Assembly (NCBI RefSeq): GCF_041248615.1
Contig: NZ_CP158426.1
DNA from: Escherichia coli
GTDB taxonomy: Bacteria > Pseudomonadota > Gammaproteobacteria > Enterobacterales > Enterobacteriaceae
Length of the DNA stretch: 64,000 bases
Reading direction: 5' to 3' (one strand)
Positions 19,811 through 20,044 of the stretch are shown here, piece after piece. A model generated the notes under the pieces. The model was not told the origin of the DNA. It saw nothing but the letters and a program-made list of their open reading frames with translations, and searched no databases. Numbering within the stretch: the first letter of the stretch is position 1; each line of letters opens with the position of its first letter. Made by a program: the position numbers and the translations under genes.

Positions 19811-19842
19811 AATTCAGTACCTATAGTGAGCAAAATTAGAAC

Positions 19843-19864
19843 AAACATAGCAACGGCTATGTTT
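19843..19864. promoter_or_regulatory. MntR-type operator palindrome aaacatagc-aacg-gctatgttt upstream of sitA
   Basis: Perfect inverted repeat AAACATAGC/GCTATGTTT ~35 bp upstream of sitA start. Confidence 0.75.
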
Positions 19865-19884
19865 TATAGCATAATCTATACAAA

Positions 19885-19903
19885 TGCAAATGGTTATCAT
19901 TAA
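19885..19903. promoter_or_regulatory. Candidate Fur box upstream of sitA (rc ttaatgataaccatttgca)
   Basis: About 13 of 19 matches to Fur consensus; adjacent to the MntR palindrome. Confidence 0.45.
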
Positions 19904-20044
19904 TGTATTTGTTTGTAAGTGATGAGATGCTCTTCCTCTCCTTCACGACAGCCTTCAATTACGCCATGATGGATAAACTGTAACCATAAAAGGAGAAATG
20001 TACTGAACACATCCTGCCCTGTTAAGAGAGGTGCACTGTGATGG

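What the first reader, a model, noticed from the sequence alone, without database searches (positions are those of the whole stretch)
19811..19950. sitABCD promoter carries a perfect MntR-type palindrome plus a Fur-like box
AAACATAGC-AACG-GCTATGTTT (19843-19864) is a perfect inverted repeat of the type bound by MntR at Mn-uptake promoters. A Fur-like site lies ~20 bp further upstream. This is consistent with dual Mn/Fe repression of the sit operon and shows the native promoter survived the flanking IS insertions.
Basis: partly seen in the sequence, partly recalled or inferred. Interest (0 to 1): 0.3.

Follow-up and report, generated by a model that had tools for sequence, protein, structure and literature searches.

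The report
sitABCD promoter: MntR and Fur operators
This is the ordinary, already known control region of the sitABCD manganese/iron uptake operon, with manganese-repressor (MntR) and iron-repressor (Fur) binding sites, except that in this strain mobile-element DNA has replaced everything upstream of the iron-repressor site.

Summary
AAACATAGC-AACG-GCTATGTTT lies at 19843-19864. It is the only match in the window even when 3 mismatches are allowed (0.03 expected by chance).

It lies 33-54 nt upstream of sitA, which is on the minus strand (18896-19810). Both 9-bp arms and the 4-bp spacer length are identical to the dyad in the E. coli K-12 mntH promoter. The same dyad precedes mntH or sitA in 32 Enterobacterales loci.

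A Fur-like box (sense ATTAATGATAACCATTTGC, 19904-19886, 14/19 to consensus) lies 21 bp further upstream. It ranks just behind the iucA and iha promoter boxes in this window.

Dual Mn-MntR and Fe-Fur repression of sit is established biology, so this is not new.

1. There is a second, imperfect MntR-like dyad (19862-19883) 19 bp upstream. It occupies the same position in all E. coli-type and three distant sitA promoters examined.
2. The native promoter survives only to position -93. Homology to every other sit locus stops at 19903. Base 1 of the Fur box is already foreign, and 19915-19950 is the left end of an IS110-family element.
3. This allele's Fur box is weaker than in four other E. coli-type alleles (14/19 against 15-17/19).

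Interest is low.

The parts
19843..19864 (.). Proximal MntR operator dyad. The sitA-sense sequence is AAACATAGC-CGTT-GCTATGTTT, at -54 to -33 relative to the sitA ATG. It overlaps the last 2 nt of the predicted -10 element and the expected transcription start.
   Evidence: Perfect 9/9 arms. Arms and spacer length are identical to the K-12 mntH promoter box. Conserved in all sit promoters compared. The same dyad precedes mntH or sitA in 32 of 120 genome-contig hits.
19862..19883 (.). Distal, imperfect MntR-like dyad. The sense sequence is TTGTATAGA-TTAT-GCTATAAAA, at -73 to -52. Its centre is 19 bp upstream of the proximal dyad, and its right arm contains the predicted -10 element.
   Evidence: The core ATAG-N6-CTAT occurs 3 times in the window against 0.35 expected, and two of the three are these adjacent sites. 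The arms are 7/9 complementary here and 9/9 in the pSTEC2018 plasmid allele. A dyad sits at the same position in EC93, ColV, L094 and the Dryocola, Enterobacter and Cedecea sitA promoters.
19886..19904 (-). Fur box. The sense sequence is ATTAATGATAACCATTTGC, at -94 to -76. It overlaps the predicted -35 hexamer. Its first base (19904) is already non-native.
   Evidence: 14/19 to the consensus, among the top four sites in the window behind the iucA (18/19) and iha (15/19) promoter boxes. The four other E. coli-type sit alleles score 15-17/19 and three distant sitA promoters 13/19, all at -93 to -96; a fourth distant promoter (L032) scores 17/19 at -112.
19863..19871 (-). Predicted extended -10 element, TGcTATAAA (the TG is at 19871-19870 and the hexamer at 19868-19863).
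   Evidence: Best-scoring sigma-70 candidate in the 200 bp upstream of sitA by my own scoring. The tool scan missed it because it requires T at hexamer position 6. This is a prediction only; no transcription start has been mapped.
19885..19890 (-). Predicted -35 hexamer TTTGCA, with a 16-nt spacer to the -10 element.
   Evidence: The spacer varies from 15 to 17 nt among sit alleles, so the -35 assignment is weak.
16340..19810 (-). The sitABCD operon: sitA 18896-19810, sitB 18069-18896, sitC 17215-18072, sitD 16340-17218. All four reading frames are intact.
   Evidence: ORFs. RefSeq names in the record that is identical over this stretch. SitB passes the NCBIfam equivalog for manganese/iron ABC transporter ATPase (586.6 bits against a cut-off of 393). 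SitA, SitC and SitD match metal ABC transporter families, but below those families' own cut-offs.
19904..19914 (.). An 11-nt junction filler of unassigned origin, lying between the end of sit homology (19903) and the IS left end (19915).
   Evidence: Alignments A1 and A2.
19915..20000 (+). Stub of the left end of an IS110-family element, pointing away from sitA. The right boundary is approximate.
   Evidence: 80-92% identical to the sequence immediately upstream of IS110-family transposase genes in other E. coli contexts. In all four contexts the homology begins at GTAAG(T/C)GATGAG.
20003..21074 (+). ISEc11-like IS110-family element nested in that stub. Its transposase ORF starts at 20146 and is frameshifted and truncated. 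The left boundary is approximate.
   Evidence: 84-87% identity to ISEc11 copies. Annotated as a frameshifted, incomplete IS110 family transposase in the identical record.
14889..16203 (+). IS256-like element about 130 bp downstream of the sitD stop codon, with an intact 402-aa ORF and an 8-bp target duplication, ACAAATAA. It is absent from the otherwise near-identical record NZ_CP033635.1.

Best explanation
The region 19843-19904 is the regulatory core of the sitABCD (Mn2+/Fe2+ ABC importer) promoter, read on the minus strand. A predicted extended -10 promoter (TTTGCA-16-TGcTATAAA) is covered by three repressor sites. The first is a Fur box over the -35 hexamer (19886-19904). The second is an imperfect MntR-like dyad over the spacer and -10 element (19862-19883). 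The third is a perfect MntR dyad over the end of the -10 element and the expected start site (19843-19864). When Mn2+ is plentiful, dimers of MntR (a DtxR-family repressor that is a core E. coli gene) occupy the dyads and block RNA polymerase. When Fe2+ is plentiful, Fur occupies its box. The operon is fully on only when both metals are scarce. What is shown here is the sequence identity to the mntH dyad, the positional conservation, the species-level presence of mntR and the rank of the Fur box. What is inferred is actual binding, the position of the transcription start, and the role of the second dyad. In this lineage (53 of 2681 sit-carrying complete E. coli genomes) a rearrangement associated with nested IS110-family elements replaced all DNA upstream of position -93. 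That leaves a minimal promoter whose Fur box has lost its first base and carries two internal substitutions. Iron repression may therefore be weaker here than in other sit alleles.
For: Perfect dyad, unique in the window. Arms and spacing are identical to the K-12 mntH promoter, AAACATAGC-AAAG-GCTATGTTT, where a Fur-like sequence also lies just upstream. The mntS promoter has the related dyad ATATAGC-CTGT-GCTATAT. In a truncated genome scan, 32 of 120 exact hits lay 13-74 nt before mntH (26) or sitA (6) in Citrobacter, Kluyvera, Salmonella, E. albertii, Enterobacter, Cedecea and Dryocola. Two dyads and a Fur box sit at near-identical distances from the ATG in E. coli-type sitA promoters and in three distant ones, at about 74-75% SitA identity. 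The core ATAG-N6-CTAT is enriched: 3 found against 0.35 expected, and two are adjacent. mntR is present in 5421 of 5426 complete E. coli genomes. The same consensus count that ranks the sit Fur box also picks out the iucA promoter (a classical Fur operator, from my own knowledge) and the iha promoter, described as Fur-regulated (also from my own knowledge). In the literature, Mn-MntR represses MntH and SitABCD (PMC3852070, citing Patzer & Hantke 2001, Ikeda 2005, Runyen-Janecky 2006). sitA-lacZ responds to fur and mntR deletions in Salmonella (PMC8970401). sitABCD is in the Fur regulon of two pathogenic E. coli strains, in a study that defined regulons by ChIP-exo plus differential expression (PMC10164565). 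The junction is shown.
Against: There are no binding or expression data for this allele. The transcription start is not mapped, and the tool's promoter scan did not report this promoter; it emerges only from my looser scoring. The Fur box is only 14/19, and a score that high arises in 2% of shuffles of this AT-rich region. The distal dyad is imperfect here (7/9) and overlaps a TATAAA hexamer, which would be conserved as a -10 element anyway. The primary papers (Ikeda 2005, Runyen-Janecky 2006, Patzer & Hantke 2001) could not be read here, so the published site positions are known to me only through reviews and memory.
Confidence: 0.8

Rival explanations
1. MntR control is intact, but the Fur box of this allele is no longer an effective operator. 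Loss of its first base and of the native upstream flank, plus the T-to-C and T-to-G substitutions, leave sit in this lineage repressed mainly by Mn and largely uncoupled from iron.
For: The match is 14/19 here, against 15-17/19 in four other E. coli-type alleles. Homology ends at 19903, and base 19904 is G in all four other alleles but A here. From my own knowledge, Fur footprints usually extend beyond the 19-bp core, so IS-derived flank DNA would lie within the footprint.
Against: The central TAATGATAA-CATT core is retained. The Dryocola, Enterobacter and Cedecea sit promoters carry boxes scoring only 13/19 at the same position. The iha box in this window scores only 15/19.
Confidence: 0.15
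2. The palindrome acts at the RNA level. It would form a hairpin in the sitA 5' leader that serves as an attenuator, terminator or stabiliser, rather than as a DNA operator.
For: The terminator scan flagged it on the minus strand: a 9-bp stem and 4-nt loop followed by GTTCTAATTT. If transcription starts upstream of it, the dyad would be transcribed.
Against: The hairpin is weak (-9.8 kcal/mol) and no better than shuffled sequence (z -0.70; 44 of 200 shuffles fold at least as well). The T-run is interrupted. The arm sequence itself is invariant between unrelated genes (mntH and sitA) while the loop varies, and no compensatory changes are seen. That pattern fits protein recognition of DNA, not RNA pairing. 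The predicted start site falls inside the dyad.
Confidence: 0.03
3. The palindrome and the Fur-like box are chance features of AT-rich intergenic DNA and have no regulatory role.
For: The region is AT-rich (33% GC), and at least 14/19 Fur matches arise in 2% of shuffles.
Against: The palindrome is expected 0.03 times per window. It is identical to the dyad in the K-12 mntH promoter and is positionally conserved across genera.
Confidence: 0.01

Closest known systems
E. coli K-12 mntH promoter (dual Fe-Fur and Mn-MntR repression; Patzer & Hantke 2001, cited via PMC3852070 and PMC8264917)
   Same: The MntR half-sites (AAACATAGC) and the 4-bp spacer length are identical. A Fur box lies a short distance upstream of the dyad, and both sit immediately upstream of a Mn-importer gene.
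   Different: The spacer sequence differs (AAAG against CGTT). In mntH the dyad is 14 nt from the ATG, against 33 nt here. mntH has an extra CATAGC half-site 11 bp upstream instead of a second full dyad 19 bp upstream.
sitABCD promoters of Salmonella Typhimurium and Shigella flexneri (Ikeda et al. 2005; Runyen-Janecky et al. 2006, cited via PMC3852070)
   Same: The same operon, with the same reported logic: repression by Mn through MntR and by Fe through Fur.
   Different: I could not read those papers or obtain the Salmonella chromosomal promoter sequence, so site-by-site correspondence was not tested. The allele in this window lacks all native DNA upstream of -93.
sit promoters of other E. 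coli loci (uspF-linked chromosomal locus of EC93; pAPEC-O2-ColV; pSTEC2018_166-a)
   Same: The sequence from the ATG to -93 is colinear. The proximal dyad is identical in two of the three, with one inner-arm change in the third. The distal dyad and the Fur box are at the same positions.
   Different: Those loci share more than 100 bp of further upstream sequence that is absent here. Their Fur boxes score 15-17/19 against 14/19 here. The -35 to -10 spacer differs by 1-2 nt.
mntS (rybA) promoter of E. coli K-12, proposed to descend from a sitA 5' region (bioRxiv 10.1101/2023.06.02.543501)
   Same: It has a related dyad, ATATAGC-CTGT-GCTATAT, with the same ATAGC-N4-GCTAT core and spacing.
   Different: The outer arm bases differ and the gene product is different. 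The preprint links mntS to a different SitA clade (Rahnella and Sodalis type), not to the Shigella and E. coli type.

Membership tests
Enterobacterial MntR (DtxR-family) operator | Inverted repeat with AAACATAGC-type half-sites separated by 4 bp (core ATAGC-N4-GCTAT) | tested here: met
   19843-19864 has 9/9 complementary arms, identical in arms and spacing to the dyad in the K-12 mntH promoter. That this mntH dyad is the mapped MntR site is from my own recollection of Patzer & Hantke 2001, which I could not read.
Enterobacterial MntR (DtxR-family) operator | Located in the promoter of a manganese-homeostasis gene and conserved in orthologous promoters | tested here: met
   It lies 33-54 nt upstream of sitA. 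The same dyad lies 13-74 nt upstream of mntH or sitA in 32 Enterobacterales loci. Its position is conserved in 9 sit promoters.
Enterobacterial MntR (DtxR-family) operator | Overlaps the core promoter or transcription start, so that binding represses transcription | tested here: inconclusive
   It overlaps the best predicted -10 element and the expected +1, but no start site is mapped and the tool scan did not call this promoter.
Enterobacterial MntR (DtxR-family) operator | The cognate repressor gene mntR is present in the host | tested here: met
   mntR was found in 5421 of 5426 complete E. coli genomes. This is a species-level result; the window's own genome is not identified.
Enterobacterial MntR (DtxR-family) operator | Mn2+-dependent binding of MntR and Mn-dependent repression | not testable with these tools
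   Needs EMSA or footprinting and reporter assays. The literature supports it for sit in Salmonella and Shigella (PMC3852070, PMC8970401).
Fur box | Good match to the 19-bp consensus GATAATGATAATCATTATC (or the 7-1-7 motif) | tested here: met
   14/19 to the 19-mer and 11/14 to the 7-1-7 motif. It is one of four distinct sites with at least 14/19 in 64 kb, alongside the iucA and iha promoter boxes. It is weaker than in four other E. coli-type sit alleles (15-17/19).
Fur box | Overlaps the promoter of an iron- or manganese-uptake gene and is conserved in orthologues | tested here: met
   A Fur-like box lies at -93 to -96 in 8 of 9 sit promoters and at -112 in the ninth. It overlaps the predicted -35 hexamer.
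Fur box | Fe2+-Fur binding and fur-dependent repression | not testable with these tools
   sitABCD is reported in the Fur regulon of two pathogenic E. coli strains (PMC10164565), but those are other alleles.
SitABCD Mn/Fe ABC importer operon | Four genes in order: periplasmic binding protein, ATPase and two permeases of the cluster-9 metal ABC family | tested here: met
   Four intact, overlapping or abutting ORFs. SitB scores above the NCBIfam equivalog cut-off, and the others hit metal ABC families below those families' cut-offs. RefSeq names them SitA-D in the identical record.
Intrinsic terminator or leader hairpin | A stable GC-rich stem-loop followed by an uninterrupted U-run, more stable than expected from composition | tested here: not met
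   -9.8 kcal/mol with z -0.70. Only 3 GC pairs, and the tail GTTCTAATTT is interrupted.

The most novel reading that the evidence does not exclude
Two things are not excluded by the evidence. First, sitA promoters across Enterobacterales may use a fixed two-dimer MntR operator: two dyads 19 bp apart at -73 to -52 and -54 to -33, with either the distal or the proximal one being the perfect copy depending on lineage. I could not find this described in the literature available to me. Second, in this 53-genome lineage the IS-associated breakpoint, which falls exactly at base 1 of the Fur box, together with two substitutions inside the box, may have weakened iron repression. That would yield a sit operon controlled mainly by manganese.
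Probability: 0.25. Interest if true: 0.35.

Novelty: already known. Interest (0 to 1): 0.15.

Why it matters
SitABCD is a virulence-associated manganese and iron importer of extraintestinal and avian pathogenic E. coli, Shigella and Salmonella. Its dual control by MntR and Fur is textbook biology, so confirming the sites adds little. The modest practical points are these. In this island the promoter is cut down to 93 bp, with a clipped and weaker Fur box, which could change how the operon responds to iron in the host. The tandem-dyad layout suggests that two MntR dimers act at sit promoters. And promoter intervals next to IS elements should not be assumed native beyond the point where homology with other sit loci stops.

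Tried and rejected
1. The tool's sigma-70 scan found no promoter over the operators. Its two minus-strand hits (20177-20148 and 20025-19997) lie in IS DNA, and the count was no better than in shuffles (2 found, 1.2 expected). I therefore scored candidates myself.

2. I tested the RNA hairpin or terminator reading of the palindrome and rejected it.

3. I tried to read the primary papers: Ikeda 2005 (PMC545731), Runyen-Janecky 2006 (DOI 10.1128/IAI.00562-06), what I took to be Kehres et al. 2002 on Salmonella mntH regulation (PMC135095, an id recalled from memory), and Waters 2011 (PMC3194919). None is held. A full-text search for the box sequence found nothing relevant. The literature support therefore rests on reviews and later papers.

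About three quarters of the hits are chance matches in unrelated phyla. It gives examples, not a census. The Salmonella chromosomal sitA promoter was not recovered.

5. I assumed the window was colinear with NZ_CP033635.1. It is not: there is an extra IS256-like insertion and other differences. The sit promoter region itself is 100% identical to that record.

6. I looked for a conserved target sequence at the left flank of the IS110-family stub in four contexts and found none. The origin of the 11 nt at 19904-19914 stays unassigned.

7. I looked for a second full dyad 19 bp on either side of the mntH box in K-12 and found none; there is only an extra CATAGC half-site (by eye).

Full report
**Observation**

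The sequence AAACATAGCAACGGCTATGTTT is at window 19843-19864 as reported. It has two 9-nt arms that are 100% complementary, separated by 4 nt. Allowing up to three mismatches, it is the only match to AAACATAGC-N4-GCTATGTTT on either strand of the 64-kb window. Dinucleotide-preserving shuffles give 0.03 matches on average.

The operon it serves is on the minus strand: sitA 18896-19810, sitB 18069-18896, sitC 17215-18072, sitD 16340-17218. 'Upstream' therefore means higher coordinates. A chromosome that is 100% identical over 19600-20150 (E. coli ECCNB12-2, NZ_CP033635.1) annotates these four genes as SitA-D. SitB passes the NCBIfam equivalog for manganese/iron ABC transporter ATPase.

**Is the palindrome an MntR-type operator?**

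I fetched the K-12 mntH promoter. Its sequence just before the ATG is TTGATAATCATTCTCGTTTGGCATAGCATGAAACATAGCAAAGGCTATGTTTTAGAGGCACAAGATG. The dyad AAACATAGC-AAAG-GCTATGTTT has exactly the same two arms and spacer length as the sit dyad (sense AAACATAGC-CGTT-GCTATGTTT). A Fur-like sequence lies just upstream in both promoters. The K-12 mntS promoter carries the related dyad ATATAGC-CTGT-GCTATAT.

Of those 120 loci, 32 had the dyad 13-74 nt before an mntH (26) or sitA (6) homologue. The genera were Citrobacter, Kluyvera, Salmonella, Escherichia albertii, Enterobacter, Cedecea and Dryocola. The remaining hits were scattered chance matches in unrelated phyla.

The repressor gene mntR is present in 5421 of 5426 complete E. 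coli genomes.

Reviews state that Mn-MntR represses MntH and SitABCD, citing Patzer & Hantke 2001, Ikeda et al. 2005 and Runyen-Janecky et al. 2006 (PMC3852070; also PMC8264917). A Salmonella sitA-lacZ fusion responds to fur and mntR deletions (PMC8970401). The primary papers are not in the held library.

The core ATAG-N6-CTAT occurs three times in the window against 0.35 expected, and none of 100 shuffles reached three. Two of the three are 19 bp apart in this promoter, at 19847-19860 and 19866-19879.

The upstream copy, extended to 22 nt, is TTGTATAGA-TTAT-GCTATAAAA in the sitA sense (19883-19862). Its arms are 7/9 complementary.

I compared nine sitA promoters: this window, chromosomal EC93, pAPEC-O2-ColV, pSTEC2018_166-a, L094, and four from other genera at about 74-76% SitA identity.
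- The E. coli-type promoters, and those of Dryocola and Enterobacter, carry dyads at -73 to -52 and -54 to -33 from the ATG. Cedecea has the same pair shifted by 3 nt (-70 to -49 and -51 to -30).
- In pSTEC2018 the distal dyad is the perfect one (TTTTATAGC-TTCT-GCTATAAAA, 9/9).
- In Dryocola, Enterobacter and Cedecea the distal dyad is also perfect and the proximal one imperfect.
- The L032 promoter has a single dyad.

It is a phylogenetic footprint for a two-dyad operator. The caveat is that in the E. coli type the right arm of the distal dyad is also the likely -10 hexamer.

**The Fur box**

The sense sequence ATTAATGATAACCATTTGC (19904-19886) matches GATAATGATAATCATTATC at 14 of 19 positions, and the 7-1-7 motif at 11 of 14.

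Counting matches at every position of the window, the top distinct sites are:
- 4395-4413, 18/19: the divergent MFS/iucA intergenic region, which from my own knowledge is the classical aerobactin Fur operator.
- 50756-50774, 15/19: 50-68 nt upstream of the iha ATG.
- 19886-19904, 14/19: the sit site.
- 23625-23643, 14/19: a site inside sodC.

Three of the four top sites are thus promoters of iron-related uptake or receptor genes, which validates the crude score.

Taken alone, the sit site is only moderately significant: at least 14/19 arises in 39 of 2000 shuffles of the AT-rich 150-nt region. However, a Fur-like box occupies -93 to -96 in eight of the nine sit promoters. sitABCD was also reported in the Fur regulon of two pathogenic E. 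coli strains, in a study that combined ChIP-exo with differential expression (PMC10164565).

**Promoter**

The tool scan found no sigma-70 promoter over the operators, because it requires T at position 6 of the -10 hexamer. A looser scoring of the 200 bp upstream of sitA ranks TTTGCA (19890-19885), a 16-nt spacer, then TGcTATAAA (19871-19863) first.

On that model the Fur box covers the -35 hexamer, the distal dyad covers the spacer and -10 element, and the perfect dyad covers the end of the -10 element and the expected start site. That is the geometry expected of simple steric repressors. It remains a prediction. The spacer varies from 15 to 17 nt among alleles, and no transcription start is mapped.

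**How much of the promoter is native?**

Megablast against 5426 complete E. coli genomes and 72,556 plasmids shows that 2681 genomes and more than 1100 plasmids match the sit side of the query. In all but 53 records the match stops at query position 303/304, which is window 19902/19903.

An alignment with chromosomal EC93, pAPEC-O2-ColV and pSTEC2018_166-a shows those three sharing more than 100 further upstream bases with each other. The window diverges completely upstream of TTAATGATAA.

Position 1 of the 19-bp Fur box (19904) is G in the four other E. coli-type alleles and A here. Within the retained part, this allele also has T-to-C and T-to-G changes. Its Fur match is 14/19, against 17, 16, 15 and 17 in the other four.

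From 19915 the sequence GTAAGTGATGAGATG... is 80-92% identical to the roughly 90-bp stretch that lies immediately upstream of IS110-family transposase genes in several unrelated E. coli contexts. In each context the homology starts at the same GTAAG. This segment is therefore the left end of an IS110-family element pointing away from sitA.

Around 20000 a second element of that family, ISEc11-like, is nested in the first. Its transposase ORF starts at 20146 and is frameshifted and truncated. The 11 nt at 19904-19914 could not be assigned to either source.

On the other side of the operon, an IS256-like element (14889-16203, with the 8-bp duplication ACAAATAA) lies about 130 bp beyond the sitD stop codon. 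It is absent from the otherwise near-identical ECCNB12-2 record, which has IS1 and ISL3 fragments further out.

The last 36 bp of the reported interval are IS DNA.

**Rival readings**

The terminator scan flags the palindrome as a stem-loop on the sitA sense strand. But the hairpin is -9.8 kcal/mol with z -0.70 against shuffles, and the T-run is interrupted. The arms are invariant between unrelated genes while the loop varies. That pattern indicates protein recognition of DNA rather than RNA pairing.

A more serious alternative is that only MntR control is intact and the clipped, weaker Fur box no longer works well. Against this, the Dryocola, Enterobacter and Cedecea sit promoters carry 13/19 boxes at the same position. 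I give this alternative about 15%.

**Verdict**

The MntR and Fur interpretation is supported and is already known biology for sit and mntH.

The added value of this second look is threefold: a second conserved MntR-like dyad, the exact breakpoint of native DNA at the first base of the Fur box, and the identification of 19915-19950 as IS110-family left-end DNA.

Novelty is 'already known', and interest is low (0.15). The most novel reading still open is a fixed two-dimer MntR operator at sit promoters, together with a lineage-specific weakening of iron repression. I give it about 25% probability, and it would be of modest interest if true.

Noticed in passing
window 4395-4413: A near-perfect Fur box (GATAATGATAATCATTATT, 18/19) lies in the divergent intergenic region between an MFS transporter gene (3127-4320, minus strand) and iucA (start about 4456). 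This is the classical aerobactin promoter operator and served here as a positive control for the Fur scoring.
   Followed up: partly
window 50756-50774: A Fur-like box (15/19) lies 50-68 nt upstream of the iha ATG at 50824. iha encodes a siderophore receptor/adhesin.
   Followed up: partly
window 14889-16203: An IS256-like element with an intact 402-aa ORF, terminal inverted repeats (GAGCCTGT...) and an 8-bp target duplication, ACAAATAA. It is absent at this site from the otherwise 99.99-100% identical record NZ_CP033635.1, so it is a recent insertion. A related copy (83% identity) lies near 57028-57836.
   Followed up: partly
window 19915-21074: Two nested IS110-family elements. An approximately 85-bp left-end stub (19915 to about 20000) is interrupted by an ISEc11-like element with a frameshifted transposase. 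Elements of this family use a non-coding guide ('bridge') RNA; I did not check whether one is still encoded here.
   Followed up: partly
window 19880-19888 and 19904-19912: An imperfect inverted repeat (ACAAATGCA / TGTATTTGT, 89% complementary, 15 nt apart) brackets the Fur box. Its distal arm lies in the non-native junction DNA, so it was created by the rearrangement. It is probably chance.
   Followed up: no
window 21150-21271 (+), 42764-42906 (+), 26179-26265 (-): Rfam matches above the gathering score: STnc490 (133.7 bits, next to an IS200/IS605 fragment), isrN (138.2 bits) and a group II intron domain (64 bits, next to an ltrA pseudogene).
   Followed up: no
whole window: The window is a heavily IS-riddled chromosomal pathogenicity-island segment: MFS-iucABCD-iutA, sitABCD, sodC, amiC and iha, plus many IS3, IS21, IS66, IS110 and IS256 fragments. 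Most transposase genes are pseudogenes, while the metal-uptake genes remain intact. In the related record iucD is annotated as frameshifted; the window has a 425-aa ORF at 8867-10144.
   Followed up: partly
L002/L003/L004 (about -100 to -200 upstream of sitA in other sit loci): A chromosomal and two plasmid sit loci share a conserved block upstream of the Fur box (for example CAGCAGGAAACAACCTAATCCC) that is missing from this window. Its function, if any, is unknown.
   Followed up: no
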